64,000 nucleotides of DNA from a bacterium (GCA_040755755.1 JBFLZW010000031.1:64561-128560), one strand, 5' to 3'. Positions 43,369 through 61,367 are shown, counted from the first letter of the stretch. The notes: generated from the sequence alone by a model not told the origin. Translations and numbers: made by a program.

Positions 43369-44334
43369 TTAATGTTTCCAGAGCTTCTTCAAAATGGAAA
43401 GCGGGCCTTTGGTGTCTTTATTCTCAGGGGCATCCTTGTGCTGGTGTCCTTCCCCTTTTTGATCGGAGGAAGGGGAACCCGGACGCTCATTGGAGGAGGG
43501 CTTTGGTATTTCAGCCAGGCGGCCGCTGCCCAGAAAGCGAAACAGGGGCCCCAAGGGGCCGAGGGACAGCTCATCGCCGGGATTGAGCGGTGACTGAAGG
43601 TCGATGGGCTGCCGGTTGACCATAATCAATCGTTGTCCCGTGAGGTCCTTGACCCAGTAGCGATCCTGACTGTAGAAGACCTGGACATGCTGACCCTGGA
43701 TACCAGGATGGTCAAGCTGAAAATCGCAGCTTGCCTCTTTTCCCATGGTAACCGGCACCGCTTTGTATGAGCGCAGCGTAGGGCCATACTGGATAATGAG
43801 GGGGACTCTCACGTTGTGCACCACGACTTTGCCTGCTGCCTCGACAGGCTCAGGATGAAGGGGTGGGGGTTCGGGCTGGAGGAAGGGGTGCTCAGGCTCC
43901 AGCCGGGAAGATGAATCCGGTTCACTCTCCGGGGGATGATGCGGCGGTGAAGGCAGGGGGCCGCTTTGCTGCGGAGCCGGGAGAACGCTTTCTTTCCCGG
44001 CTTGGTTTTCCTGAATCTGGGTCAGGAAGCTGACCTTTGGCCCGCCTTCGGCAAAAGACAACACGTCTCCGTTCTTCAGGTACGCCTCTTCAACCACTCT
44101 CTTGCCGTTGACAAAGGTGCCATTGGTGCTGTGGTCTACCAATTTAAAGCGATTTCCGTCTCGGACTATTTCGGCATGGTTGCGGGAAATTATGGTCAGA
44201 TCCGCCGGGAACTTCAAATGACATGACTGGTGGCGGCCAATGGCAATCCTGGCTTCGGAAAACTCCTGAATTTCGCCCTTGAGAGGCCCTTGAATATGAA
44301 CGAGTTGAACGGTAATAACCGGCTGTTGCTTCAT
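43369..44334 (-). CDS. tandem FHA-domain protein with Pro-rich linker
   Basis: Two FHA cores (IGRHQSCHLKF...SRNHAEI...GSTNGTFVNG and MGKEASCDFQL...GQHVQVF...GQRLIMVN) separated by a PPHHPPESEPD linker. Confidence 0.8.
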   Translation of the reverse strand: MKQQPVITVQLVHIQGPLKGEIQEFSEARIAIGRHQSCHLKFPADLTIISRNHAEIVRDGNRFKLVDHSTNGTFVNGKRVVEEAYLKNGDVLSFAEGGPKVSFLTQIQENQAGKESVLPAPQQSGPLPSPPHHPPESEPDSSSRLEPEHPFLQPEPPPLHPEPVEAAGKVVVHNVRVPLIIQYGPTLRSYKAVPVTMGKEASCDFQLDHPGIQGQHVQVFYSQDRYWVKDLTGQRLIMVNRQPIDLQSPLNPGDELSLGPLGPLFRFLGSGRLAEIPKPSSNERPGSPSSDQKGEGHQHKDAPENKDTKGPLSILKKLWKH

Positions 44335-44521
44335 TGGGAATAAAAATTATCTGATGGTAAATGGTTTATCATCCTGTTTGCAGTCCAGAACTCAATTATA
44401 GCCTGAATCTCGCATTTCTTGCAAGAAAATAATTATTTACAACCTGCCATAAGTTTACTAAAATAGGATTGACTTTTAACCTTTCTCATGAGAGGATCTA
44501 TAACCACCAAATTGAAAGGCG

Positions 44522-45250
44522 ATGCCTATGACAGTCTCATTTGGACAATCAGATCCTGGCCTCAGACGCTCGAATAATGAAGATGCTTTCATCATCATAT
44601 CCGAAGCGGACCTTCTGGCAGTGGCCGATGGAATGGGCGGGGCAGCGGCTGGTGAGGTGGCCAGCCGGATATTTATTGAATCCGCCTCGGCACTTTCCGG
44701 CGGTGCGAAGTGTCAATCCGAGCAGGAAGCCCTTGTCAGGGTCCAGGATATCTTCAGATCAGCCAATGAAAAAATTATTAACCATGCCAGGCAGAACCCT
44801 CAGTGCCGGGGAATGGGGTGTACCGCCGAAGTCATTGTCTTCACCAGCCAGGGTTATGTTCTTGGCCATGTAGGAGACAGCCGCACCTATCTGCTGCGAG
44901 CGGGACAACTGAAACGATTGACGCATGATCACTCTGTGGTCCAGGAGCAGATCGACCAGGGCCTCATCACGCCAGAGGATGCCAGAAAACATCCCCTCAA
45001 AAGTGTTATCCTCAGAGCTGTAGGTGTCAACGAACAGTTGGCCCTTGACCTGATACGGGATAAAACCGTTCCCGGCGACCTTTTTCTCCTCTGCTCCGAC
45101 GGTCTGACAGATATGATTGACGATTCCTTCATCAAGGATATCCTTTCCCGTCCCCTGACTCTTTCTCAAAAGGGAACCCAGTTAATCGAGGCTGCCAAAT
45201 CAGCCGGGGGGTATGACAACGTAACGGTAGTTCTCGGTGAAGTAAAGTGA
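44522..45250 (+). CDS. PP2C-family Ser/Thr protein phosphatase
   Basis: RRSNNEDAF...VADGMGGAAAGE...GDSR...CSDGL motifs of PPM phosphatases. Confidence 0.85.
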   Translation: MPMTVSFGQSDPGLRRSNNEDAFIIISEADLLAVADGMGGAAAGEVASRIFIESASALSGGAKCQSEQEALVRVQDIFRSANEKIINHARQNPQCRGMGCTAEVIVFTSQGYVLGHVGDSRTYLLRAGQLKRLTHDHSVVQEQIDQGLITPEDARKHPLKSVILRAVGVNEQLALDLIRDKTVPGDLFLLCSDGLTDMIDDSFIKDILSRPLTLSQKGTQLIEAAKSAGGYDNVTVVLGEVK

Positions 45251-46204
45251 TTGACCATGAGCAAGTTCACTCGGGCGTGGATGGTCCTGGCCGTTGCCGC
45301 TGTCACGGTTTTTCTGCTGTTTGCGTTTGCCGGGGCTGGAAGCGCGGACGTGGAGTTCAGATCGTATCCTTTTCCTCTGCCGGAGGTGGAGGATGTCATT
45401 TCACGATGGCTGCACAGCAACGGCTTTGAGATCGTCCGTGCTTGCCGGGAAGGGGGCCAGGTCCACCTGGGAGCGATGAAAGAAGGCGAGCGCTGGCAGA
45501 TCATGCTCAAGCCCCGCTCTCCCCTGGCCTCGGAGGTCCAGGCCGAATACTTCCGGCAGGGGCAGCCCGATCAGGCGCTCCAGAAAGAACTATGGGCCCA
45601 TCTGCAAAGATATGCCCGGAATCCTGCTGCCGAACAAGAGGATTACGGTGTCCCCTCCCCGGTTTTGGCCCACAGTGAATCGGTGGTCTGCATCAAAGCC
45701 GAGCGGGGAGGAAAACCGATTCAGTTCTCCGGTTTCATTATTGACCGGGAGGGGTTAATATTAGGAACAGCCCATGACCTTGAAGGGATCCAGGAGGTCA
45801 GGGTTATTCTCGATAACGGCCATGAGCTGAACGGACAACTATGCAGGGCCGATCATGACCGGGATTTGGCTCTTATTGCCGTCAAGACCAGGTTCGATGC
45901 CTGCATTTCTCTTTCCCGGGGACGAAACCTCCTGAGCATGGGTGAAAAGGTGTTTTCGATCGGATGTCCCGTCAATCTGCAGGGAACGGTCCATGCCGGT
46001 TTCATCGACGGCCCTCCGAGGAAGGTGAATACTCTGCTCCTGTGGCAGGTGAATATGGAAGTCCTGCCGGGAAGCAGCGGCAGCCCGGTGTTTGATACCC
46101 AGGGAAACGTGGTGGCTGTTGTCAAGGGCAGATACCGCGGCACGGATTCAGTGGGCTTTCTGATCCCAATGGAGACGATCAGAGAATTTATGGGACAAAA
46201 ATAG
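45251..46204 (+). CDS. membrane-anchored trypsin-like (S1) serine protease with N-terminal domain of unknown function
   Basis: N-terminal TM/signal. C-terminal chymotrypsin fold with GTAHDL (His), DLALI (Asp) and GSSGSPVFD (Ser). No PDZ. Starts 1 nt after the PP2C stop. Confidence 0.75.
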   Translation: MTMSKFTRAWMVLAVAAVTVFLLFAFAGAGSADVEFRSYPFPLPEVEDVISRWLHSNGFEIVRACREGGQVHLGAMKEGERWQIMLKPRSPLASEVQAEYFRQGQPDQALQKELWAHLQRYARNPAAEQEDYGVPSPVLAHSESVVCIKAERGGKPIQFSGFIIDREGLILGTAHDLEGIQEVRVILDNGHELNGQLCRADHDRDLALIAVKTRFDACISLSRGRNLLSMGEKVFSIGCPVNLQGTVHAGFIDGPPRKVNTLLLWQVNMEVLPGSSGSPVFDTQGNVVAVVKGRYRGTDSVGFLIPMETIREFMGQK

Positions 46205-46217
46205 GACGGAAGTTAGC

Positions 46218-47450
46218 ATGTTATTACAGTATGGACGGTATCAGATCGAAAATGAGCTTGGCAAGGGAGCTATGGGGGTGGTCTACCGGGCCCATGATCC
46301 CCGGATTGACCGGTCAGTCGCTTTGAAGGTCCTGCGTCCGGACCGGGTCACCAACGAGGATTTCGTCCAGCGGTTCCTCAAGGAGGCTAAAGCGATTGGC
46401 AGGCTTTCGCATCCCAATATCGTTACTGTCTATGACGTCGGGCAGGATCAGGACACGATCTTTATTGCCATGGAATTTCTCGATGGCAAACCTCTTCATA
46501 CGATCTTGCAGGAAGCAAAACCGGATATTGGCACCATCGTCGATCTTGGCATCCAGGTAGCCTGTGCCCTCGATTATGCCCACCAGAAGGGAATCGTTCA
46601 CCGGGATATCAAGCCCGGCAATATTATTGTCCAGCCCGATGGCCGGGTGAAAATAACCGACTTCGGAATTGCCCATATCGAAGATTCCTCGGCCACGCAG
46701 CAGACCAGGGCGGGAGAGATTCTCGGCAGCCCGGCTTATATGTCCCCCGAACAGGTGATGGGCCAGCCGGTGGACGGACGCTCAGATCTGTATTCGCTGG
46801 GCGTTGTCCTCTACGAGCTGTGCGCCGGGAAGCGGCCCTTCCAGGAAGATAACCTGGCCGCTCTTTTCAGGGCCATTACTCAGGATAATCCCCCTGAACT
46901 GTCAGCTCTCGACCCGGCAATCCCCCCCCTGCTTTCGCAGACAATCGTAAAGTGCCTGAGCAAGCAGCCGGAGAAACGCTTTCAGACCGGCCTTGCCCTG
47001 GCCGATGCCCTGAAGACCTGCCTGAAGAAGACAAAAGCCGCCCCGACCGGACAGGATCGGCCAAAGGGCAGGTTCCTGGTGCTCCTGATCGCGGTTTTCC
47101 TGATCAGTATCACGGCGGGGATTTTGGTCTATTTCTTCGGCTCAGCCAGGGATGATCGTCTTCCTCCTCCTTCTCCTCCTCCGTCGGTTACGGAGCAGCA
47201 ACCGCCGCCGACTGGAGAAGCGCCTCCGGTGATTGCTTTTCTCAAGGTCGAAAGTACGCCCGTCGGTGCCCAGATTTTCGTGGATGGAACCCTGCACGGG
47301 AAAACGCCTGCCCGGCTTGAGCTTGCGCCCGGAAAACATGAGGTCCGGCTGACTTTGCCCGCTTATTTTGACTGGGAAGCCCAGGTTCAGTTACCCGAAA
47401 AGGTCGAGACCCCTCTCCTGGTCCGGCTGATGCCGACCGAGGAGGAGTAG
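46218..47450 (+). CDS. Hanks-type Ser/Thr protein kinase with TM segment and extracytoplasmic PEGA domain
   Basis: Kinase motifs GKGAMGVVY, HRDIKPGN, DFG, SPE. TM segment FLVLLIAVFLISITAGILVYFF. C-terminal ESTPVGAQIFVDGTLHGKTPARLELAPGKHEVRL is a PEGA domain. Confidence 0.9.
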   Translation: MLLQYGRYQIENELGKGAMGVVYRAHDPRIDRSVALKVLRPDRVTNEDFVQRFLKEAKAIGRLSHPNIVTVYDVGQDQDTIFIAMEFLDGKPLHTILQEAKPDIGTIVDLGIQVACALDYAHQKGIVHRDIKPGNIIVQPDGRVKITDFGIAHIEDSSATQQTRAGEILGSPAYMSPEQVMGQPVDGRSDLYSLGVVLYELCAGKRPFQEDNLAALFRAITQDNPPELSALDPAIPPLLSQTIVKCLSKQPEKRFQTGLALADALKTCLKKTKAAPTGQDRPKGRFLVLLIAVFLISITAGILVYFFGSARDDRLPPPSPPPSVTEQQPPPTGEAPPVIAFLKVESTPVGAQIFVDGTLHGKTPARLELAPGKHEVRLTLPAYFDWEAQVQLPEKVETPLLVRLMPTEEE

Positions 47451-47483
47451 TGGTCAGTGGTCAGTGATCAGTGGTTAGTGGCT
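47449..47483. repeat. five tandem AGTGGTC-type heptamers (AGTGGTC AGTGGTC AGTGATC AGTGGTT AGTGGCT)
   Basis: Read directly. The first unit overlaps the kinase stop codon. A second array of the same heptamer is at 59121-59176. Confidence 0.6.
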
Positions 47484-47488
47484 GGAAT

Positions 47489-47535
47489 CCAGAAGTCAGG
47501 AGAAAAACAGCCCTTATTCTGACTCCTGACTCCTG
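47489..47535. repeat. GTCAG-repeat hairpin element (CCAGAAGTCAGGAG...CTGACTCCTGACTCCTG)
   Basis: Imperfect 13-bp stem with a 16-20-nt loop. Related copy at 57107-57173. Confidence 0.5.
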
Positions 47536-47561
47536 AATTCTTTAAAAAAAAGGAGTGTCAG

Positions 47562-49556
47562 ATGAAGATTACCCGAAAATGCCGTGCCGTCAGTTTGATC
47601 CTCACCCTTGGTTTTTTCCTCTCGGGAATGGGCGTAAGCTATGGCCAGATCGCACCCGGCCAGTCCGCTCCGCTCTTTTCCCTGAAGGATATCGCCGGAA
47701 AATCCCATGACCTGGCCCAGATGAAAAATCAGCCCATGATTATTCTCTACTTCTTCGATGCAGAATCGAGGCCGAGCCAGGAAGGAATCGTAAGCCTGAA
47801 TCAATTGGCCAGACAATACAAGGGCTATGACCTGACCACCCTGGCCATTACCCTCTCTCCGCGGGCCAAGATCGATCAGTTCAGGAAGCAGACCGACCTA
47901 GGGTTTCCCATCATCCAGGACCAGTCCGGGATCAGCGACCGGTATCAGGCCCGGCAGATACTGCCCACGGTCTGCATTATCGGGCCGGGTCTTCGCGTTC
48001 TCGACCATTTTCAGGGCGGAGGCAAAACCACCGAAGTGATGCTGGTCAGGCTGGCCGAGAGGGAATTACAGAGAAAACAGACCACGCTGGCTAAAGCCAT
48101 CAGCGCCGAGGTGGTAAAAAAGAACCCTCACAATACCAGGGCCAAAACAGTGGCTGGTTATGCAGCCCTCAGGGAGGGGAACCTCAAGCAGGCGCAGGAG
48201 GTTTTCCAGAACCTGGCCAAAGACAGCGGACAGGCAGAGGTACTTGGCAAAGAAGGGCTGGCCGCCGTTCATGTCCAGAAGGGAGAGGCGGCCAGAGCCC
48301 TTGAGCTGGCCAGAGAGATAGAGCACAAAGCTCCTGAAAGATCCTATGTCCATGTCATCAAGGGAGATATTCTCGCCAGTCAGGATAAAAAGCAGGAGGC
48401 CGAGGCGGAATATCAGAAAGCGATAGCCAAGAAGGATGCCGAGCCGTACCAGGAAGCGGTCAGGCATAACCAGCTTGGCCGGTTGTATGCAAGCAGCGGA
48501 CAGTATCAAAAGGCGCGTGAGCTTTACGACCAGGCGGTGGCCATCGATCCTTATTACATCGAGGGGACGACCAACAAGGGGATAACCTACCAGAAAGAAG
48601 GCAATTGGGATAAAGCCCTGGAATCCTTTCAGCAGGCCGTCACCCTTGACAAGGGCGATACCTTTGCGGTTGTCCTGGCCAAAAAAGCCCAGGAGATGCT
48701 GGAGTTCCAGAAAGACAACGAGCGTAAAAAACGGGTTGACCAACTGGTGAAAGACCTGGCCGAGCGGTACCGCAGTCAGGAGAAGTCCAGGCCAAAGGAT
48801 GAAGATACCTGGACCTCCCGGCCCATGATTATCTCCTTTGTCGATTTTCAGGAAAAAGGCGGCCTGGCCGAGCGGGATGGCTTCTCGACCGTGATGACCA
48901 GCCAGTTAAGCGATTCCCTGACCGCCTCGAACCGGGTCCAGGTGGTGGAGCGGGTGCTGATCGAGCGTCTCATGGAGGAGTTGAACCTTGGTTCTTCGGA
49001 TCTGGCTGATCAGGAAACTGCGCTCAAGCTTGGCCGGGTACTGGCCGCCAAACTGATCGGCACCGGATCCCTCTTTTACCTGCCCAACGGGACGCTCCTG
49101 AATCTCAGGCTCATCGACAGCGAAACCTCAGCCATCCCTTTGGTGATCACCCGGCAAATCAGCCCCCAGGCATCTCTGGAAAAAGAGCTTTACGCCCTCA
49201 ACCGGCAGATATTAAGGACAGTCATGGAAAAGTATCCCCTGCACGGGTATCTGGTTGAAGTCACAGGAGATCAGGCCCTGGTTAACCTCGGCTCCCGCCA
49301 GGGAGTGGTTCAGGGGACACGGTTTGAAGTGCTGGAAGAAGGCAAGCCGATCACCTACAAGGGGAAGACGCTCCAGAGCTCACCAAAAATCATCGCCCAG
49401 GCCGAGGTTGTCCGGGTTGAGCCTGACCTGTGCCATATCCGGATCATCAGCCAGGAAAGACCCCTGAAAACCGATGACAAGGTCCAGGAGAGAATCGCGG
49501 AAGCGGTCCTGGGAGAAGGCAGCGAAGAAGGTAGTGGAAGCAGGGATCATGAATAG
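47562..49556 (+). CDS. secreted multidomain protein: Cys-less peroxiredoxin/thioredoxin-like fold + TPR repeats + C-terminal CsgG/LpoB-like domain
   Basis: Signal peptide. AhpC/TSA-like N-terminus (PLFSLKDIAGKSHDLAQMKNQPMIILYFFDAESRPSQEG ... FPIIQD) lacks the catalytic Cys. Central TPR units. The C-terminal region matches the CsgG/LpoB/TolB-N-like pattern (ISFVDFQEKGG...RVQVVERVLIERLMEELNLGSSDLADQETALKLGRVLAAKLIGTGSL). Confidence 0.6.
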   Translation: MKITRKCRAVSLILTLGFFLSGMGVSYGQIAPGQSAPLFSLKDIAGKSHDLAQMKNQPMIILYFFDAESRPSQEGIVSLNQLARQYKGYDLTTLAITLSPRAKIDQFRKQTDLGFPIIQDQSGISDRYQARQILPTVCIIGPGLRVLDHFQGGGKTTEVMLVRLAERELQRKQTTLAKAISAEVVKKNPHNTRAKTVAGYAALREGNLKQAQEVFQNLAKDSGQAEVLGKEGLAAVHVQKGEAARALELAREIEHKAPERSYVHVIKGDILASQDKKQEAEAEYQKAIAKKDAEPYQEAVRHNQLGRLYASSGQYQKARELYDQAVAIDPYYIEGTTNKGITYQKEGNWDKALESFQQAVTLDKGDTFAVVLAKKAQEMLEFQKDNERKKRVDQLVKDLAERYRSQEKSRPKDEDTWTSRPMIISFVDFQEKGGLAERDGFSTVMTSQLSDSLTASNRVQVVERVLIERLMEELNLGSSDLADQETALKLGRVLAAKLIGTGSLFYLPNGTLLNLRLIDSETSAIPLVITRQISPQASLEKELYALNRQILRTVMEKYPLHGYLVEVTGDQALVNLGSRQGVVQGTRFEVLEEGKPITYKGKTLQSSPKIIAQAEVVRVEPDLCHIRIISQERPLKTDDKVQERIAEAVLGEGSEEGSGSRDHE

Positions 49557-50082
49557 AAGAGCATGGCTGACAGGTCTTATCCTGGTTGGATTTTTTTGCG
49601 CCTCCTGCACGTTGCGTCAATCCCTGCCCCTTGGGCAGGGCACAGCGATGGAAAAGGATACTGCAATTGAAAAGGGTGCTGCGGTAGCTGTCTGGGATTT
49701 CGATAACTTGAGCCCATCTGCCGAAGGCCAGCCGCCTTCACTGGGAGAGCTTCTCTCCGCTCAGGTTATGGAATCGCTCCAGTCTCGCGGGGATGTAACG
49801 GTCATCGAGCGGCAGCGGCTGCACCTGGCCCTTGAGGAGCTTAAATTGGGATCGACCTCACTGGCGGATGAGGCCACACGGTTAAAGCTCGGCCATCTGG
49901 TGGGAGCCCGGCTGATGGTTTTTGGAGCCTACCAGGCGATCGCCGGCACCATGCGCCTCGACCTGCGGCTGGTCGAAGTGGAAACCGGCAAGGTGCGTAA
50001 TGCTGTCAAAGGAACGGCTTCGAGCGGGGATATGGCCGAATGGCTGAAGACCGCCAGGGAAGCCGCGGCAGGGCTGCTGTAG
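49549..50082 (+). CDS. CsgG/LpoB-like lipoprotein (paralog of the C-terminal domain of the preceding gene)
   Basis: Lipobox ILVGFFCASC. AVWDFDNLS...DVTVIERQRLHLALEELKLGSTSLADEATRLKLGHLVGARLMVFGAY parallels the upstream domain. The ATG overlaps the upstream gene by 8 nt. Confidence 0.6.
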   Translation: MNRRAWLTGLILVGFFCASCTLRQSLPLGQGTAMEKDTAIEKGAAVAVWDFDNLSPSAEGQPPSLGELLSAQVMESLQSRGDVTVIERQRLHLALEELKLGSTSLADEATRLKLGHLVGARLMVFGAYQAIAGTMRLDLRLVEVETGKVRNAVKGTASSGDMAEWLKTAREAAAGLL

Positions 50083-54396: not shown

Positions 54397-54427
54397 GTCA
54401 CCAATTTTAAATTTTTGGTGACTTTTT
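54397..54427 (+). terminator. rho-independent terminator (GTCACCAA-N10-TTGGTGAC + TTTTT)
   Basis: Perfect 8-bp stem with a T-run, 9 nt after the stop of the 54050-54388 ORF. Confidence 0.5.
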
Positions 54428-54485
54428 GGTGACTTAAACACAAAAGGGTTACCGACTCTAATCAGTAACCCCTTGAGTTTACTGA

Positions 54486-54557
54486 AGCCGGCGATGGGAT
54501 TCGAACCCGCGGCCTGCTGATTACGAATCAGCTGCTCTACCCCTGAGCTACGCCGGC
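54486..54557 (-). tRNA. tRNA-Thr (anticodon CGU)
   Basis: Cloverleaf folded by hand: GCCGGCG acceptor stem, GCTC/GAGC D-stem, GCTGA/TCAGC anticodon stem, loop TTCGTAA (anticodon CGT), TTCGAAT T-loop. One C-A mismatch in the T-stem. No encoded CCA. Confidence 0.75.
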
Positions 54558-54658: not shown

Positions 54659-55246
54659 TCAGTCAGCCCGGCGAAGATGGTACTGGTTCATGATTTCCTG
54701 TTTGCTCAACAGCGCCTCTACCGGGACACCTGCCTCCCGGATTCGCTCCAGCCCGTTTTCTTCCTGCCGGTCGATTAAAACGATTGCTTTTTCGACCAGG
54801 AGGCCATTGGCCCTGGCCCGTTCAATGGCCGTGATGGTCGATTGTCCGGTGGTAACTACGTCATCAACCACCACCACCCGGTCTGCGGGATGCAGGTCTC
54901 CCTCGATTTCCCGCTGCAAACCGTGATCTTTTTTCAATTTGCGGACGATGAAAGCTTTAATATTCTGTTGATGTTGATACGCGACACTCATGACTGCATA
55001 GGCGATGGGGTCTGCTCCAAGAGTCAGTCCGCCAATGCCCTGGATGTTAAGATCCCGTATCATGGCAAAAATCAGATGGCCGATACAATCCATTCCCTCC
55101 GGAATCAAGGTTACTTTCCGGCAGTCAAGATAATAATTGCTTGTCTTCCCGGAGGACAGCATGAAGGGCTTGTCTTCGCTGTAGTTGAAGGCCCGATCCA
55201 AAACCAGATTCAATAATCTTTCCTTCATCTCTTTCACGGTTTTCAT
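54659..55246 (-). CDS. pyrE: orotate phosphoribosyltransferase
   Basis: PRPP-binding motif VVVVDDVVTTGQS in a type I PRTase fold. ~195 aa. Confidence 0.9.
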   Translation of the reverse strand: MKTVKEMKERLLNLVLDRAFNYSEDKPFMLSSGKTSNYYLDCRKVTLIPEGMDCIGHLIFAMIRDLNIQGIGGLTLGADPIAYAVMSVAYQHQQNIKAFIVRKLKKDHGLQREIEGDLHPADRVVVVDDVVTTGQSTITAIERARANGLLVEKAIVLIDRQEENGLERIREAGVPVEALLSKQEIMNQYHLRRAD

Positions 55247-55317
55247 GAACCTTTCTTCTTGTTTTTCAGGAACATTCTTTCTTATAACATTCTTTCTTAT
55301 GAGGAGGAAAGAGCACG

Positions 55318-57054
55318 TTAGAAAAATTCCGGGAATTTAGAGCTCATTTCTCTCAAGACAAATTCCTCGATTTCTTTGGCCGTCGAGAAAGACATGGCCT
55401 TGTAGGCAAGCTCCGTAGCCTGCTCCAGCCGGACGGAACGGACAATCTGCTTGATGATCGGGATCGAAGCCGTGTTCATGCTGAACTCATCCAGCTCCAA
55501 CCCTAACAGAATCAAAGTCGATAGCGGATCCCCTGCCATTTCTCCGCACATCCCTACCGGGATGCCCTCGGAGTGCCCTGCCTCCACCGTGCGCTTGATC
55601 AATCGAAGAACAGCCGGGTGCAGCGGCTCATACAGGTAGGCCACATGCTCGTTTCCCCGGTCGATGGCGATGGAATACTGGATCAGATCGTTGGTGCCGA
55701 TGCTGAAAAAATCTGCCTCCTTGGCCAGCAGGTCAGCGGTAATTGAAGCCGAGGGGATTTCGATCATTACGCCGACCGGGATGTCCTCGTCAAAATAAAT
55801 TCCCTCCGACGACAACTCGTCCTTGACTTCGGCCAGAATGAGATTGGCCTGCTGGAGTTCCTCGATACCGGAGATCATGGGGTACATGATGCGCAGTTTT
55901 CCATAGGCACTGGCCCGCAGAATTGCCCGCAACTGGAGGCGGAACAGGTCGGAGTGCTTCAGGGAGAACCGGATGGCGCGAAGGCCCAACACAGGGTTCG
56001 GCTCATCCATGACGTGCAGCTTGGATTCGATCTTGTCACCTCCAAGATCCAGGGTGCGGATAGTTGCCTGTCGGGGACTCACCTGCTCAGCCAGCCGCTT
56101 GTAGACACGGAAATGGTCTTCCTCCGTGGGTAATTTGGGGCTGTTCATATAGAAAAACTCGGTCCGGTACAATCCGATCCCTTCCGCTCCCCGGCTCAGT
56201 ACATGGGGAATATCATCCAGGAATTCGATATTGGCCATGATTTCTATTTTATATCCATCCAGGGTTTCGGCCGGCTGGTCAGTATATTTCAAAAGCTCCT
56301 GAATGACATATTTGAATCTGCGCTGCTTTTCCAGATAATCGCGAAACTCTTCCGGGGTCGGTTTGACGATAACCACCCCATCGGTCCCATCGATGATGAT
56401 CGGATCTCCGGTCTTGACAAAGGTGCAGATGTTCTCCAGACCTACCACTGCCGGGATTTCCAGCGAACGGGCCATAATGGCCGTATGTGAAGTCCGGGCC
56501 CCAAGGTCCGTGGCGAAGCCGATTACCCTCCCCCGGTGCATCTGAGCGGTATCGGCTGGTGACAAATCGTGGGCAACAACGATAACATCCTCCTCAAACC
56601 CGTCGAGGCTCCTCATTTTTTCCCCTACCAGGTTATGCAGGATCCTTTGCCCTACGTGTTCGATGTCACTTTTGCGCTCCTTCATGTACGGATCTTCGAT
56701 CTGGTCAAAAATATTGGCGAACCGGGTCAATACCTTTCGTAATGCCCACTCGGCATTGACCCGTTCTTCCCTGACGATATTTATGGCTTCATTAACCAGC
56801 ATCTCATCTTCGAGAATAAGAATGTGGACATCCACGATATGAGCATGCCCCTGGTCACCAAGGTCGTGGGTGAGTTTCTCCTTTACCTGCAAGAGCTGCT
56901 CGCGGGATTTTTGCAGGGCATCCATGAATCGGGCGACTTCTTCCTCGACCATGTCACCAGCGATGGTAAATTTTTCAACCTTGATTTTTCTTCTATCCAG
57001 TAAAAAAGCTTTACCGATGCTGATGCCTGGTGATACCCCTACTCCTTTCAGCAT
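55318..57054 (-). CDS. ptsI: phosphoenolpyruvate-protein phosphotransferase (PTS enzyme I)
   Basis: 578 aa. Phospho-His region GGRTSHTAIMARSLEIPAVVG and the PEP-utilising C-terminal domain. Confidence 0.95.
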   Translation of the reverse strand: MLKGVGVSPGISIGKAFLLDRRKIKVEKFTIAGDMVEEEVARFMDALQKSREQLLQVKEKLTHDLGDQGHAHIVDVHILILEDEMLVNEAINIVREERVNAEWALRKVLTRFANIFDQIEDPYMKERKSDIEHVGQRILHNLVGEKMRSLDGFEEDVIVVAHDLSPADTAQMHRGRVIGFATDLGARTSHTAIMARSLEIPAVVGLENICTFVKTGDPIIIDGTDGVVIVKPTPEEFRDYLEKQRRFKYVIQELLKYTDQPAETLDGYKIEIMANIEFLDDIPHVLSRGAEGIGLYRTEFFYMNSPKLPTEEDHFRVYKRLAEQVSPRQATIRTLDLGGDKIESKLHVMDEPNPVLGLRAIRFSLKHSDLFRLQLRAILRASAYGKLRIMYPMISGIEELQQANLILAEVKDELSSEGIYFDEDIPVGVMIEIPSASITADLLAKEADFFSIGTNDLIQYSIAIDRGNEHVAYLYEPLHPAVLRLIKRTVEAGHSEGIPVGMCGEMAGDPLSTLILLGLELDEFSMNTASIPIIKQIVRSVRLEQATELAYKAMSFSTAKEIEEFVLREMSSKFPEFF

Positions 57055-57106
57055 TAAAAATCAGCCTCCCTGCTTTGACCTCAATCTTGAGGTAAGAATC
57101 CAGAAT

Positions 57107-57173
57107 CCAGGAGTCAGAAGTCAGAAGTCAGAATAAATACTCTTTTCTCCTGGCTCCTGACTCCTGACTCCTG
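57107..57173. repeat. GTCAG-repeat hairpin element between ptsH and ptsI (CCAGGAGTCAGAAGTCAGAAGTCAG...CTGGCTCCTGACTCCTGACTCCTG)
   Basis: 24-bp imperfect inverted repeat with a ~18-nt loop. Same GTCAG/CTGAC unit as 47489-47535. Confidence 0.5.
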
Positions 57174-57179
57174 TCTTTT

Positions 57180-57449
57180 TTAATTTTTTTCCCCGAATTT
57201 ATCTTCAATCAGTTCTATCAGCTTTGTCAGAAGCTCCTGCGCATCGGAACCATTCACATCGACCAACAGCTCACTGCCCAGTGGAGCATCCAGGGTCAAT
57301 ATTCCGAGGAGGCTTTTCCCATTGGCCGTAACGTCCCCTTTCTGAATGGTTATTTCTGAAGTATACTTATTGGCCAGATTGACAATCTGACTGGCAGCTC
57401 GTGCATGTAAGCCCAACTTATTTTTAATAAATACTGTCTGCTTTGGCAT
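57180..57449 (-). CDS. ptsH: phosphocarrier protein HPr
   Basis: His15 region GLHARAAS and Ser46 region GKSLLGILTL. 89 aa. Confidence 0.9.
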   Translation of the reverse strand: MPKQTVFIKNKLGLHARAASQIVNLANKYTSEITIQKGDVTANGKSLLGILTLDAPLGSELLVDVNGSDAQELLTKLIELIEDKFGEKN

Positions 57450-58299: not shown

Positions 58300-59085
58300 T
58301 TACCCCCTGCTCCACTTTCCCTTTATGGATTCCTTCAATCCATACAGCACACTCAGAAGGAGGGACGGGACCCCAAAGGCCATCCAGCACGGAAGAGGCC
58401 AGAGAGAGGAAAGCAGTGTGGCCAACAGAAAGCTCAAGGCAAACAGCCAGTACATATCTTTACTGCGAAAGGCATCGAAGAGCAGGGCGATGCCAATCAT
58501 CGGATAGGCAAAATACAAAAGCTTTAATCCACGATATAATCCCGGGGGAAATAAGGGGGCAATCCGCTGGAGAAGCGGGACGGTAATGAGCAGACTTATC
58601 AGGCACAGGCTGAATGAGCGAAGATAGAACAACCCGATCCCGCTGAAGTGGAGAAGATCGATTTTCCTTGATGTTTTTCCCGTGACCGCTGCCTGGACCT
58701 GATCGCAGATCCTGCCATTGGCCTTTCTGACCAGGATGCTCACCCGCTGGGCAAGGATCGAGAAGGGGATCGCCAATAAAATGGCCAGGCTGATCAGGGA
58801 CTCGCGGGAGCCTGGAAAAAATGGCCCGGCCAAAAGGCAGATTCCGGCAGCAATAACTGCTGCCATCGATCCGTCCAGGGGGACTGAACATCCGATCGGC
58901 AAAAGGTAAACCATCATAAGCTCAAGGAATGCCCCTATCACCAGTCCGGCATGCAAATCTCCAAACATCCATCCAAGCAGAGGAGCAGCCACAACCGGCT
59001 GCGAAATCATTATTTGAGTCAGCGAAACATCATCTAAATTTATCAGCCCGCCGATGAGACTGATTTCAAGGATTTGCTGAATCAC
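58300..59085 (-). CDS. PTS mannose-family EIIC component
   Basis: Polytopic membrane protein with the EIIC(Man) N-terminal pattern (MISQPVVAAPLLGWMFGD). 1-nt spacing to the EIID gene. Confidence 0.8.
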   Translation of the reverse strand: MIQQILEISLIGGLINLDDVSLTQIMISQPVVAAPLLGWMFGDLHAGLVIGAFLELMMVYLLPIGCSVPLDGSMAAVIAAGICLLAGPFFPGSRESLISLAILLAIPFSILAQRVSILVRKANGRICDQVQAAVTGKTSRKIDLLHFSGIGLFYLRSFSLCLISLLITVPLLQRIAPLFPPGLYRGLKLLYFAYPMIGIALLFDAFRSKDMYWLFALSFLLATLLSSLWPLPCWMAFGVPSLLLSVLYGLKESIKGKWSRG

Positions 59086-59120: not shown

Positions 59121-59176
59121 AGTGGTCAGTGGCCAGTAATTAGTGACCAGTGGTCAGTAAAAAACTGATAACTGAT
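59121..59176. repeat. eight tandem heptamers of the AGTGGTC family (AGTGGTC AGTGGCC AGTAATT AGTGACC AGTGGTC AGTAAAA AACTGAT AACTGAT)
   Basis: Read directly. Lies between the GH57 stop and the EIIC start. Same unit as 47449-47483. Confidence 0.55.
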
Positions 59177-59189
59177 ACTTCTCTCTTGC

Positions 59190-61367
59190 CTAGTTATGGC
59201 TGTAATTGGAAACCTGCATCCGGAAGCGGCAGGTCCATCCCTCCCCTGCGGCTAAGTTGATATCCCAGTAGGGAAGGATAACCGAGCTCTGATAAACTCT
59301 TTCAAACCCTGATTCAGAATTTGAGGCGGTTTCGATCGGGAATCTCCAGATGCCGGGGTAGTCAGCAAAATCGAAAGAGACAATCAGACCAAGGGCTTCA
59401 TCCACCAGTTGAATCTGCTCGACCTGCTCCAGGGTTCCCCAACTGGCCAGTTGCCGATCCTTGAGGGCAATGCCGGGTACTTGATAATACCTGTCCGCAC
59501 TTCGTCCGGCCAGAAGGTTCACATTGAATTCTACTCCGAATCGGCATCGAACGGTCGATTTCCCTAAATTGACCAGTTGATACTCGAAAGCTAATTCCGA
59601 TTTATCTGCCTGAACCCTCACCGCTTTTTCAACGCGGAATGGGATATGCTCTCCATCGATCAGCAGGGAACCATCCCGGGAAAGAATAAGGTGGAGCATG
59701 TCCTGAGTCGATTGAAGTTGCTGTTTCTGGTAATTTCCGGTAATAAAATCCCCATATTCCTGATGTTGTAACCGGCTGAACTCCTTGAGTGTGGTGACAG
59801 GAGGGAAGAAATGATCGAGCAGGCAGTTGCGGGCATATTGATCATAATAAAGCAGCTCAGCCAGATCCTTTTCCTTGCTGACCGTAATCTCATGGATGCT
59901 CTTTACCCCATAGCTGTCATCCTGATCCACTCCTATGTGTGCTCCCTGCTGCAGTTTCTGGTGATACGTTTCCCGTCTGCGCATGAGAGAGTTGATCAGG
60001 TTAAAGGCTTTTGGCCGGTAGTCCAGTTCGTTGATCGTGCCCCCTGCGTCCATGTCAAGCCAGAACATCAGACTGGATGTTTTGACCAGGATTTCCTCTC
60101 TTCCGTCGCCATCCATGTCCACTGGCAGGCAATCGATCCAGCTCTCCGTCGGATGAAGCCGCTCATCGATGATGTTCTCTGCCTTGATCAGGTGATTATA
60201 GACTCCATCCCGCAAATGCGGGAGGTAGAGCCCGCCAAAAAGGCCGTGCCAGTAAGCATCATTGCATTGGCCTTTCCAGAGCTCATCCCGTGCCCGATCC
60301 AGCCATTGCTGAGAAGAATCCGCGGATGCCCCTTTACTCTGATACTGTTCGATCTGCTTACTCACCCAGAGCATTTTCTGATAGAGGTTGTTGCTCTCCG
60401 AATACTTGCTCAAAAAGTTGCGCCAGAAACCTCCCTTGACAAAGGGTTTGGCTCTCTGAGGGAACTCTTTGGTATTACTGATCATTCTTTCCAGAGCAAT
60501 AAATTCCTCCGCCGTCTGGATCGGCAGTGCCCACTCCTCCATCTCCGAATACGAGGCGGTCGGCAAATAAACTTTTCCCAGCGGAGGAAACTTGTCCACA
60601 TATTCGCCGTAAGTTATTGTTTCAAGAACATCCTGATTTTCTTCAACCAGGCTGAAGAACTGATCCAGCCAGCCCTGATTATAAACCAGATCATAGGTAC
60701 CCGGCCAGACACCGAATTTTTCTCCGTCATCGGCCATAACCCGCAGATTCCCCCTCCCCCGGTTTTCATGCAGCAGATAATCGATCGTCATCCGGGGGGA
60801 TTTAAATGGAATCGTATATCGCAGATACTTGCTGCCGGGGAAGACTTTCAGCAGGTTTCCCTGCTCCTCGGTAAGGTAATAACCCCACAGTTCCTCTTCA
60901 CGAATGCCGGCGGATCGAAAATGCAGGTCATCTACCGCCAGATACTCAATTTCAGCCTCTCGAATGTAGCGCACCAGATGCGGCTCCCACACCCGCTCGG
61001 CCAGCCACATGCCCCTCGGTGTGGTATGAAAGCGTTCTTTGAGAAACCGGTTCAATTTTTTAATCTGGCCAACCTTATCCACATCCGGGAGAATCGGTAA
61101 AATCGGTTCATAATAGCCGCCGCTCAATAATTCTACCTGTCCCCGCTCGATCATGTCAGCCACGATATCCAAAAGAGGAGAGGATTTTTCCAAAAACCAG
61201 TTCCAGAGTGTTCCTGAATAGTGGAGACTTATCTTGATTCCGGGATGTCTTTTCAACACCTCCCAAAAGGGAAAATATGCTTTCTGGTAACATCCTTCGA
61301 AAACAAAATCAAAGTTTCCTATCGGCTGGTGATTATGAATTCCCAAAATAAGGTATTGTTTTTCCAA
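59190..61367 (-). CDS. glycoside hydrolase family 57 protein (alpha-amylase/4-alpha-glucanotransferase-like)
   Basis: 725 aa. N-terminus LILGIHNHQPIGNFDFVFE...YEPILPIL and the WLAERVWEP/EY region are characteristic of GH57 catalytic domains. Confidence 0.85.
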   Translation of the reverse strand: MEKQYLILGIHNHQPIGNFDFVFEGCYQKAYFPFWEVLKRHPGIKISLHYSGTLWNWFLEKSSPLLDIVADMIERGQVELLSGGYYEPILPILPDVDKVGQIKKLNRFLKERFHTTPRGMWLAERVWEPHLVRYIREAEIEYLAVDDLHFRSAGIREEELWGYYLTEEQGNLLKVFPGSKYLRYTIPFKSPRMTIDYLLHENRGRGNLRVMADDGEKFGVWPGTYDLVYNQGWLDQFFSLVEENQDVLETITYGEYVDKFPPLGKVYLPTASYSEMEEWALPIQTAEEFIALERMISNTKEFPQRAKPFVKGGFWRNFLSKYSESNNLYQKMLWVSKQIEQYQSKGASADSSQQWLDRARDELWKGQCNDAYWHGLFGGLYLPHLRDGVYNHLIKAENIIDERLHPTESWIDCLPVDMDGDGREEILVKTSSLMFWLDMDAGGTINELDYRPKAFNLINSLMRRRETYHQKLQQGAHIGVDQDDSYGVKSIHEITVSKEKDLAELLYYDQYARNCLLDHFFPPVTTLKEFSRLQHQEYGDFITGNYQKQQLQSTQDMLHLILSRDGSLLIDGEHIPFRVEKAVRVQADKSELAFEYQLVNLGKSTVRCRFGVEFNVNLLAGRSADRYYQVPGIALKDRQLASWGTLEQVEQIQLVDEALGLIVSFDFADYPGIWRFPIETASNSESGFERVYQSSVILPYWDINLAAGEGWTCRFRMQVSNYSHN

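What the first reader, a model, noticed from the sequence alone, without database searches (positions are those of the whole stretch)
47449..47483. Heptamer tandem array (AGTGGTC x5) starting inside the kinase stop codon
Five head-to-tail 7-bp units follow the kinase gene, directly upstream of a GTCAG hairpin and the next gene's start. A second array of the same heptamer is at 59121-59176. Repeats of a 7-bp unit in an intercistronic or promoter-proximal position are classic slipped-strand variable tracts. Copy-number change would alter spacing between the upstream gene end and the downstream start region.
Basis: seen in the sequence. Interest (0 to 1): 0.5.

Follow-up and report, generated by a model that had tools for sequence, protein, structure and literature searches.

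The report
Intergenic heptamer-repeat hairpin element
The five AGTGGTC repeats are real, but they are the worn, unpaired outer arm of a hairpin-forming 7-base repeat element of a kind found between genes in many bacteria and phages, and nothing found here shows them acting as a fast copy-number switch.

Summary
Positions 47449-47483 are five head-to-tail heptamers (two perfect, three variant) that start in the TAG stop of a Ser/Thr kinase gene. These are the only such loci in the window.

The phase-variation reading is not supported. The tract is degenerate. It lies in an intra-operon spacer with no promoter-like site. Related arrays showed no 7-nt copy-number change where near-identical sequences could be compared.

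The tract is the outer 5' arm of a composite element, 5'-(NNNTCAG)n-loop-(CTGANNN)n-3', that fills the spacer. In most relatives the same junction is only 21-31 nt, so the element is a lineage-specific insertion or expansion.

The paired part matches the MTYCTGA paired sites described in Geobacter metallireducens. Related known cases are cyanobacterial STRR and TAACTGA repeats.

Exact (AGTGGTC)x3 occurs in about ten phylum-level groups and in phage contigs. Opposed arrays always have the TCAG-type arm first (148 to 0).

Best reading: a REP/STRR-like palindromic repeat element, largely selfish or neutral here. Its RNA would form an intercistronic stem-loop. That RNA role is inferred, not shown.

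The parts
46218..47450 (+). Upstream gene: Ser/Thr protein kinase with a C-terminal PEGA domain. Its TAG stop (47448-47450) overlaps the first repeat unit.
   Evidence: ORF list; Pfam Pkinase 1.5e-54 and PEGA 2.1e-14; sequence.
47449..47483 (+). The finding: five tandem heptamers, AGTGGTC x2 then AGTGATC, AGTGGTT, AGTGGCT. This is the outer part of the 5' (F, TCAG-type) arm and has no complementary partner on the 3' side.
   Evidence: No inverted GACCACT array is nearby. In other genomes, arrays in this orientation also abut the upstream stop codon.
47484..47502 (+). Inner part of the 5' arm: GGAATCC AGAAGTC AGGAG. It pairs with the 3' arm.
   Evidence: Fold; sequence. The same GAATCCAGRAGTC motif recurs at 57096-57115.
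47503..47518 (+). A/T-rich loop: AAAAACAGCCCTTATT.
   Evidence: Fold.
47519..47541 (+). 3' (R, CTGA-type) arm: CTGACTC CTGACTC CTGAATTCT. It matches the MTYCTGA consensus of the Geobacter metallireducens class 3 sites.
   Evidence: supplement S9 of PMC2700814.
47550..47564 (+). Retained ribosome-binding site AAGGAG and the ATG of the downstream gene (47562-49556; AhpC/TSA + TPR + CsgG-like, 664 aa).
   Evidence: The alignment with orthologous junctions shows this segment is the conserved ancestral part.
57095..57174 (-). Second element of the same family, between the HPr gene (57180-57449, -) and the PtsI gene (55318-57054, -). The 5' arm is AGAATCC x2, AGGAGTC, AGAAGTC x2. The 3' arm is CTCCTGG, CTCCTGA x2, CTCCTGT (read on the + strand).
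   Evidence: Sense-strand MFE -42.9 kcal/mol, z -5.9. The Logan contig ends inside it.
59121..59177 (+). Third element, between the GH57 glucanotransferase gene (59190-61367, -) and the PTS EIIC gene (58300-59085, -). Six AGTGGTC-type units are followed by AACTGAT x2 (TAACTGA family), with the core TCAGT-AAAAA-ACTGA.

Best explanation
**What it is.** The AGTGGTC tract is not an independent switch. It is the decayed, unpaired outer part of the 5' arm of a composite palindromic heptamer-repeat element (47449-47541). The element has the form 5'-(NNNTCAG)n - A/T-rich loop - (CTGANNN)n-3'.

**How it got there.** It was inserted or expanded in an ancestrally about 25-nt stop-SD-start junction of a kinase/AhpC-TPR operon. 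Tandem units grow and decay by replication slippage and point mutation over evolutionary time. The two arms stay complementary as a unit.

**Family.** It belongs to the same general kind as cyanobacterial STRR, TAACTGA repeats and the Geobacter metallireducens 'class 3' MTYCTGA paired sites.

**Likely role.** In this genome it is most likely a selfish or neutral REP/REPIN-like intergenic element. Its transcript forms an intercistronic stem-loop that may modestly affect mRNA processing, stability or translational coupling.

**Shown:** anatomy, family membership, insertion polarity, lineage-specific presence, and lack of observed heptamer-step variation.

**Inferred:** slippage as the growth mechanism, any RNA-level effect, and neutrality.
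For: - **Anatomy.** Five F-type units are followed by a paired F/R stem. The fold gives -21.4 kcal/mol on + and -31.7 on -, with z of -4.5 or lower.
- **Two more elements of the same build** lie within 12 kb, and none in the other 47 kb.
- **Lineage-specific presence.** The orthologous junction is 21-31 nt in nine relatives, including an 81%-identical ortholog, and about 60 nt in two more. It is expanded only in the window (112 nt), L004 (98 nt) and L003 (124 nt).
- **Shared ends, different arms.** The window and L004 share TAGTGGT at the stop and the SD segment. The arms differ in concert on both sides: GAGTCAG/CTGACTC versus TTATCAG/CTGATAA.
- **Match to a described family.** The R arm matches the G. 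metallireducens class 3 sites, including the GGATTCTT ends.
- **Family-wide features:**
  - About 82% of AGTGGTC arrays lie outside long ORFs, and there is no orientation bias relative to transcription (24 versus 34).
  - Opposed arrays are always F then R (148 to 0). This includes 9 elements between convergent genes.
  - Unit order in the two arms is mirrored (51 of 71, p = 7e-6).
  - F-type arrays abut upstream stop codons.
- **Stability of copy number**.
- **Other checks.** No Rfam family matches. Published view of STRR hairpins between hupS and hupL: possible transcript stability or translational coupling.
Against: - No expression, 3'-end or read-level data exist for this uncultured organism, so neither an RNA effect nor neutrality is shown.
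- The density of such elements in phage genomes, at nearly every intergenic region, argues that they can be useful, not merely tolerated.
- The identical heptamer in many phyla and the strict arm polarity are not explained by slippage alone.
- At this locus and at L004 the antisense strand folds better than the mRNA strand. That is not what a sense-RNA function predicts.
- Gene calls used for the family-wide statistics were crude long-ORF calls.
Confidence: 0.6

Rival explanations
1. Contingency locus. The heptamer tract gains and loses units at high frequency by slipped-strand mispairing. The changed spacing alters expression of the downstream AhpC-TPR gene.
For: It is a tandem 7-bp array next to a gene start. 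Arrays of this family differ widely in copy number between loci. Cyanothece sister strains differ by 7-nt indels in related arrays.
Against: - There are only two perfect units, and three of the five are mutated.
- The tract is outside any ORF, and the scan found no promoter-like site in the spacer.
- The genes are 21-31 nt apart in most relatives examined, so they form an operon.
- The sequence is identical in the only other assembly.
- There are no heptamer-step differences in 26 array regions of a phage sampled many times, nor between 2.4%-diverged contigs.
Confidence: 0.07
2. DNA-level protein binding sites. The paired heptamer arrays are bound by a nucleoid or global regulator protein (IHF/HU-like or unknown), as proposed for the Geobacter metallireducens class 3 sites. 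This would affect local DNA architecture or transcription.
For: - The published interpretation of the same MTYCTGA pairs.
- There is no orientation bias relative to transcription.
- Folding shows no sense-strand advantage.
- Deleting heptamer repeats changed NtcA/LexA-dependent recO promoter activity in reporter assays in E. coli (preprint).
Against: - No binding protein is known.
- The variable 3 nt of the unit differ freely between elements while arm complementarity is kept. This fits a hairpin or palindrome better than a fixed recognition sequence.
- The element is absent from most orthologous junctions.
Confidence: 0.13
3. RNA-level regulator. The arms are binding sites for an RNA-binding protein (S1, Csp or CsrA-like), or the stem-loop is an RNase III site or mRNA stabiliser. 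Either would set the relative expression of the two cistrons.
For: - MacGregor's proposal for TAACTGA repeats just upstream of start codons.
- R-type arms abut downstream ORF starts and F-type arms abut stops.
- The stems are long: 20+5 bp at 57.1 kb.
- Phage genomes carry these elements between almost all genes.
- STRR hairpins between hupS and hupL are discussed in the same way.
Against: - The AGTGGTC units occur in either orientation relative to the mRNA.
- The sense strand does not fold better than the antisense strand.
- There are no flanking U-tracts.
- The element is not conserved at the orthologous site.
Confidence: 0.15
4. Chance or assembly artefact.
For: None beyond the fact that the source is a metagenome assembly.
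Against: 0 of 100 shuffles reach the observed count. An independent Logan assembly has the same sequence. The same architecture is found in hundreds of loci.
Confidence: 0.01

Closest known systems
Geobacter metallireducens 'class 3 predicted global regulator binding sites' (Aklujkar et al. 2009, PMC2700814, Additional file 9)
   Same: Both have about five tandem heptamers with consensus MTYCTGA, in pairs on opposite strands 70-115 bp apart. Both lie between genes, including inside an operon (proB-proA). Units CTCCTGA, ATTCTGA and CTTCTGA and the GGATTCTT ends are the same as at window 47519-47541 and 57095-57174.
   Different: The AGTGGTC units of the finding itself are not part of that consensus. 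The published function (regulator binding) is a prediction. The source here is a different, uncultured Desulfobacterota lineage.
Cyanobacterial STRR (short tandemly repeated repetitive) heptamers. Mazel et al. 1990 is recalled from memory; STRR hairpins between hupS and hupL are described in PMC2670836.
   Same: Both are 7-bp tandem units, dispersed, intergenic and able to form hairpins, with unknown function. AGTGGTC rotates to GTGGTCA, which is 6/7 identical to STRR2 TTGGTCA (STRR sequence recalled from memory). Exact (AGTGGTC)x3 is present in Nostoc, Calothrix, Microcoleus and Argonema.
   Different: STRR was defined in heterocystous cyanobacteria with three specific units. This case is a deltaproteobacterial-type MAG, and the same heptamer occurs in about ten phylum-level groups and in phages.
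TAACTGA direct repeats of Beggiatoaceae, Cyanobacteria and Bacteroidetes (MacGregor 2015, PMC4679880)
   Same: Both are intergenic heptamers with the CTGA core. Close relatives lack them and have shorter spacers. Contigs end inside them. TAACTGA units occur at window 59163-59177 and in the orthologous L004 junction.
   Different: In BOGUAY (the orange Guaymas 'Maribeggiatoa' genome) they are mostly direct repeats just upstream of start codons. Here the arrays are arms of inverted pairs, and the finding's tract follows a stop codon.
REP / REPIN elements mobilised by RAYT transposases (Bertels and Rainey 2011, PMC3116915)
   Same: Both are inverted doublets that form hairpins in extragenic space. 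The doublet, not the single arm, behaves as the unit. Single arms look like decayed remnants.
   Different: The arms here are tandem heptamers of variable number, not a fixed 20-35-nt REP. The single IS200-type Y1 query found no homolog in the window or in the array-selected loci, about 1.7 Mb of the 1.9 Mb searched. No transposition intermediate is known.
Phase-variable simple sequence repeats of host-adapted pathogens
   Same: Both are tandem short units near a gene boundary.
   Different: See the membership test. The tract is imperfect, no reading frame or promoter spacing depends on it, and no polymorphism was seen.

Membership tests
Phase-variable SSR (contingency locus) | A long tract of identical units that favours slippage. 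| tested here: not met
   Two perfect units (18 nt perfectly periodic), then three units with substitutions. TRF reports 88% matches.
Phase-variable SSR (contingency locus) | The tract lies inside an ORF or between promoter elements, so that unit changes shift a reading frame or promoter spacing. | tested here: not met
   The tract starts in the stop codon and lies in the spacer. No sigma-70-like site was found in 47450-47562. Most orthologous junctions examined are 21-31 nt, which leaves no room for a promoter.
Phase-variable SSR (contingency locus) | Copy number is polymorphic between strains or within populations. | tested here: inconclusive
   The only other assembly (Logan SRR25621602, a contig seen in 4 samples) is identical, and no other strain is on record. 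Family-level proxies showed no heptamer-step change. Reads were not available.
STRR / heptamer long simple sequence repeats | Tandem 7-bp units, dispersed at several intergenic loci of one genome. | tested here: met
   Three intergenic loci in 64 kb.
STRR / heptamer long simple sequence repeats | One of the defined units STRR1-3 (CCCCAGT, TTGGTCA, CAACAGT; recalled from memory) in a heterocystous cyanobacterium. | tested here: not met
   The unit is AGTGGTC (6/7 to STRR2 after rotation). The organism is a Desulfobacterota-type MAG, judged from the homologs' source names.
G. metallireducens class 3 paired heptamer sites | Heptamer consensus MTYCTGA in about five tandem copies. | tested here: met
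   Positions 47516-47541 read ATTCTGA CTCCTGA CTCCTGA ATTCT. Positions 57147-57174 read CTCCTGG CTCCTGA CTCCTGA CTCCTGT, and the opposite strand has ATTCTGA CTTCTGA CTTCTGA CTCCTGG ATTCTGG ATTCTT. This is not met by the AGTGGTC units themselves.
G. metallireducens class 3 paired heptamer sites | Two sites on opposite strands a short distance apart, between genes. | tested here: met
   Both window elements are inverted pairs, with loops of 16 and about 12 nt, in intercistronic spacers.
TAACTGA direct repeats | Unit TAACTGA as direct repeats, in forward orientation, within a few nt upstream of a start codon. | tested here: not met
   There are only two AACTGAT units at 59163-59176. They read in reverse relative to the - strand genes and lie about 80 nt from the EIIC start.
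REPIN / REP-RAYT | An inverted doublet that forms a hairpin and is the unit of the family. | tested here: met
   F-then-R order 148 to 0. Mirrored unit order. Folds.
REPIN / REP-RAYT | A cognate RAYT (Y1 transposase) gene flanked by the repeats. | tested here: inconclusive
   tblastn with the Y1_Tnp protein of L004 found no homolog in the window or in the array-selected loci, about 1.7 Mb of the 1.9 Mb searched. Whole genomes could not be searched, and the query is an IS200-type enzyme, not a proven RAYT.
Intrinsic (Rho-independent) terminator | A G+C-rich stem with a short loop, followed directly by a U-tract. | tested here: not met
   The scan does not call one at 47484-47548. The loop is 16-20 nt. 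Family-wide, only 2 of 94 and 7 of 94 elements have a flanking T- or A-run. The 57.1 kb element has a T-run only on the antisense strand.
Any Rfam RNA family | A score at or above the family's gathering threshold. | tested here: not met
   Only sub-threshold plant and animal miRNA hairpin matches at 57.1 kb, and nothing at 47.4 or 59.1 kb.

The most novel reading that the evidence does not exclude
STRR, TAACTGA repeats, the Geobacter class 3 sites and these AGTGGTC arrays may all be local names for one cross-phylum family of strictly polar palindromic heptamer elements, always 5'-(NNNTCAG)n-loop-(CTGANNN)n-3' on either strand. Under this reading the family is carried and perhaps spread by phages. 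It would be generated or recognised by a dedicated single-strand-specific machinery (REPIN/RAYT-like, or an RNA- or ssDNA-binding factor) that has not been identified.
Probability: 0.25. Interest if true: 0.7.

Novelty: new member of a known kind. Interest (0 to 1): 0.35.

Why it matters
For this window the result is mainly a correction. The tract is an ordinary, decaying piece of an intergenic repeat element inside an operon. No evidence for a phase-variation switch was found, so it should not be annotated as one.

The wider pattern met on the way may matter more. The function of bacterial heptamer repeats has been open since they were described in cyanobacteria. Four observations constrain any mechanism:
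- The same 7-mer occurs in about ten phylum-level groups and in phages.
- The order of the arms is strict (148 to 0).
- F-type arrays sit at stop codons, and R-type arrays appear to sit at the next ORF's start (crude ORF starts).
- The order of units is mirrored between the two arms.

These could be followed up in cultured carriers such as Geobacter metallireducens GS-15 or Nostoc.

Tried and rejected
- **Other strains of this organism.** Exact-protein look-ups gave only one Logan contig per gene, identical to the window. One look-up failed because the ORF start I chose was not the called one. One relative had no DNA held.
- **Known RNA family.** None found.
- **Intrinsic terminator.** Not called at this locus. 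T-runs are absent family-wide.
- **Sense-strand G-U advantage as a sign of RNA-level selection.** There is no bias in the genome loci. The trend is opposite in one phage and at this locus, so it was left as unexplained.
- **A universal TCAG core for all heptamer arrays.** Enrichment among unrelated arrays in the fetched loci was only about 2-fold, 12.6% against 5.7%. The core is therefore claimed only for this group of families.
- **Y1/RAYT transposase association.** No homolog of the one query used was found in the window or in the array-selected loci.
- **Literature on AGTGGTC arrays.** No paper in the searchable library contains the sequence in this context.
- **Selection at start codons as the sole cause of arm polarity.** This is unlikely, because 9 F-then-R and 0 R-then-F elements lie between convergent genes. 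The gene calls behind that count were crude.

Full report
**1. The observation**

Positions 47449-47483 read AGTGGTC AGTGGTC AGTGATC AGTGGTT AGTGGCT. Tandem Repeats Finder reports period 7, 4.7 copies, 88% matches.

The upstream ORF 46218-47450 is a Ser/Thr kinase with a PEGA domain. It ends in TAG at 47448-47450, so the first unit begins on the last two bases of the stop codon.

The 14-mer with up to 2 mismatches occurs 5 times in the window. The shuffle mean is 0.27, and no shuffle of 100 reaches 5.

Period-7 scans and degenerate period-7 patterns find only three loci in 64 kb: 47449-47541, 57095-57174 and 59121-59177. The third locus was missed.

**2. Anatomy**

After the five AGTGGTC units come GGAATCC AGAAGTC AGGAG. 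An A/T-rich loop follows, then CTGACTC CTGACTC CTGAATTCT. Next are A8, the AAGGAG ribosome-binding site and the ATG at 47562 of a 664-aa AhpC/TSA-TPR-CsgG-like protein.

- **47484-47541.** This stretch folds into a stem-loop of -21.4 kcal/mol on the mRNA strand and -31.7 on the other strand. Both are far beyond shuffles. The AGTGGTC units have no complementary partner.
- **57.1 kb locus (between HPr and PtsI).** It has the same build with longer arms. The sense strand folds at -42.9 kcal/mol, z -5.9.
- **59.1 kb locus (between a GH57 enzyme and PTS EIIC).** It pairs AGTGGTC-type units with AACTGAT units around TCAGT-AAAAA-ACTGA.

All three lie between co-directional genes. No Rfam family matches. 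No promoter-like or terminator-like site is called in the 47.45-47.56 kb spacer.

**3. The same junction in relatives**

The organism is an uncultured Desulfobacterota-type MAG, judged from the source names of homologs. The only other assembly of it is identical across the element. One of its contigs ends inside the 57.1 kb hairpin.

Orthologous kinase / AhpC-TPR junctions were recovered from 16 other contigs:

| Junction | Where |
|---|---|
| 21-31 nt (stop, SD, start) | nine relatives, including an ortholog 81% identical in protein |
| about 60 nt | two relatives |
| no usable kinase end | two relatives |
| expanded, 112 nt | the window |
| expanded, 98 nt | L004 |
| expanded, 124 nt | L003 |

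- The window and L004 share TAGTGGT at the stop and the SD segment. Between these, L004 has TATCAGC CATCAGT TATCAGT - loop - ACTGATA ACTGATA ACTGAAA. The phase and the CTGA core are the same, but the three variable bases are changed on both arms.
- L003 has A/G-rich repeats of about 10 nt instead.

The element is therefore a lineage-specific insertion or expansion into a tight operon junction. It is not a conserved regulatory site.

**4. Known relatives**

- **Geobacter metallireducens.** The genome paper lists eight pairs of 'class 3 global regulator binding sites'. Each is about five tandem heptamers, MTYCTGA, on opposite strands, and one pair lies between proB and proA. The supplement shows the same units and the same GGATTCTT ends as the window's paired arms.
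- **TAACTGA repeats.** MacGregor described these in Beggiatoaceae, Cyanobacteria and Bacteroidetes. She noted that close relatives have shorter spacers without them, that contigs break in them, and that Cyanothece 8801 and 8802 differ by 7-nt indels.
- **STRR hairpins.** Hairpins between hupS and hupL are discussed as possible stabilisers or coupling elements.
- **AGTGGTC arrays.** I found no paper that contains them.

**5. Distribution**

My own estimate of the chance expectation is about 0.3. By record title, the hits include:
- Acidobacteriota, Planctomycetota, Chloroflexota, Verrucomicrobiota and Bacteroidota
- Cyanobacteria (Nostoc, Calothrix, Microcoleus, Argonema)
- Deltaproteobacteria, Nitrospinota and Kiritimatiellae
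- a Chromatiaceae MAG, an Oscillospiraceae MAG and Actinomycetota

Isolates and closed chromosomes are among them.

It also occurs in 66 stretches of viral contigs, and (CTCCTGA)x3 occurs in 28. One carrier is a true phage with portal and Mu F-like genes, and another is Mu-like. In these, nearly every intergenic region holds arrays.

**6. Family rules**

- **Position and copy number.** Of 147 AGTGGTC-family arrays in the genome loci, about 120 lie outside long ORFs. Copies range from 3 to about 38.
- **No transcription bias.** Orientation relative to co-directional flanking genes is unbiased, 24 versus 34.
- **Inverted pairs.** A very common form is an inverted pair that fills the spacer from stop to next start.
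- **Strict arm order.** Across 214 loci, neighbouring arrays of opposite orientation are always TCAG-type first and CTGA-type second: 148 against 0. Because this order is its own reverse complement, either strand reads the same. Nine such elements lie between convergent genes, so selection at start codons alone is unlikely to explain it.
- **Unpaired arrays follow the same rule.** F-type on the sense strand abuts the upstream stop (8 of 9 within 11 nt). R-type lies about 55 nt from the stop and next to the following ORF (p = 0.008).
- **Mirrored unit order.** Variant units in the two arms are mirrored more often than permuted orders (51 of 71, p = 7e-6).
- **No flanking T-runs.** Only 2 and 7 of 94 elements have one.
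- **No sense-strand folding advantage**.

The window's three loci and L004 obey all of these rules. The ORF calls behind these counts are crude and are a caveat.

**7. Is copy number labile?**

- One phage was sampled in about ten metagenomes at 99.9% identity or more. In it, 24 of 26 array regions have the same length in every contig. The two exceptions are a 50-nt higher-order unit and a 2-nt indel.
- Two viral contigs 2.4% diverged over 3.3 kb have no indel, including in their (CAGTGGT) array.
- Consensus assemblies hide minority variants, so this limits but does not exclude slippage.
- The window's tract has only two perfect units.

**8. Verdict**

The tract is real and non-random. It is best read as the decayed, unpaired outer 5' arm of a REP/STRR-like palindromic heptamer element inserted in an operon spacer. 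No evidence for a contingency locus was found.

How such elements spread, why the arm order is strict, and whether the transcript stem-loop does anything here remain inferred or open. A trans-acting Y1 transposase was looked for with a single IS200-type query and not found in the window or the array-selected loci. The analogy to REPINs is to how they behave, not a claim of membership.

Noticed in passing
window 57095-57174: A very stable heptamer hairpin lies between the HPr and PtsI genes. The arms are AGAATCC/AGGAGTC/AGAAGTC against CTCCTGA. The sense strand folds at -42.9 kcal/mol, z -5.9. A strong T-run follows it only on the antisense strand. The Logan contig of the same organism ends inside it.
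   Followed up: partly
loci L005-L124 and L151-L244 (genome and IMG/VR contigs): Strict arm order. Neighbouring opposite-orientation arrays with a TCAG/CAGT core are always 5'-TCAG-type then CTGA-type-3' (148 to 0). F-type arms abut upstream stop codons, and R-type arms abut downstream ORF starts.
   Followed up: partly
L161, L208, L154, L165, L221 (IMG/VR contigs): Phage genomes (portal plus Mu F-like; Mu transposase) carry heptamer arrays or hairpins in nearly every intergenic region. In L161 and L208 the strand antisense to the genes folds better in about 10 of 15 regions.
   Followed up: partly
L170 6400-6654 versus L191: The only length polymorphism of note in the multiply sampled phage is one extra copy of a 50-nt higher-order unit made of heptamers plus AAAGGC repeats. 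It is not a single heptamer step.
   Followed up: no
L013 6886-6990 and L022 5490-5595 (same Chloroflexia MAG): There are two copies of one composite element: (GGTCAGT)3, (GTGCTGA)2, about 35 nt of similar unique sequence, then (CAAAACT)3. This suggests copy-and-paste of whole elements within a genome.
   Followed up: no
L003 9878-10000: The orthologous junction in an 83%-identical relative is expanded by A/G-rich repeats of about 10 nt. They look like duplications of the local GAAATGAGGAA sequence rather than heptamers.
   Followed up: no
window 43369-50082: The gene cluster is FHA protein (-), PP2C phosphatase, trypsin-like protease, Ser/Thr kinase-PEGA, AhpC-TPR-CsgG-like protein, CsgG-like protein. 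In relatives (L003, L150) it sits beside type VI secretion genes (VasE, SciN, VipA/B), so it resembles a T6SS threonine-phosphorylation regulatory module.
   Followed up: no
window 55240-55300: Direct repeats of 15 and 23 nt (AACATTCTTTCTTAT x2, perfect) lie just downstream of the ptsI stop.
   Followed up: no
window 54412-54557: A tRNA gene lies at 54486-54557 (-). Just downstream of it on the same strand are a 14-bp terminator-like hairpin (54474-54443) and an 11-nt direct repeat, TTTTTGGTGAC x2.2 (54412-54435).
   Followed up: no
L129 58-79 and L140 835-869: Other heptamer arrays (GGAATTT/ATTTGGG, CAAATCT) lie upstream and downstream of the orthologous gene in a more distant relative. This gene neighbourhood therefore attracts different heptamer families in different lineages.
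   Followed up: no
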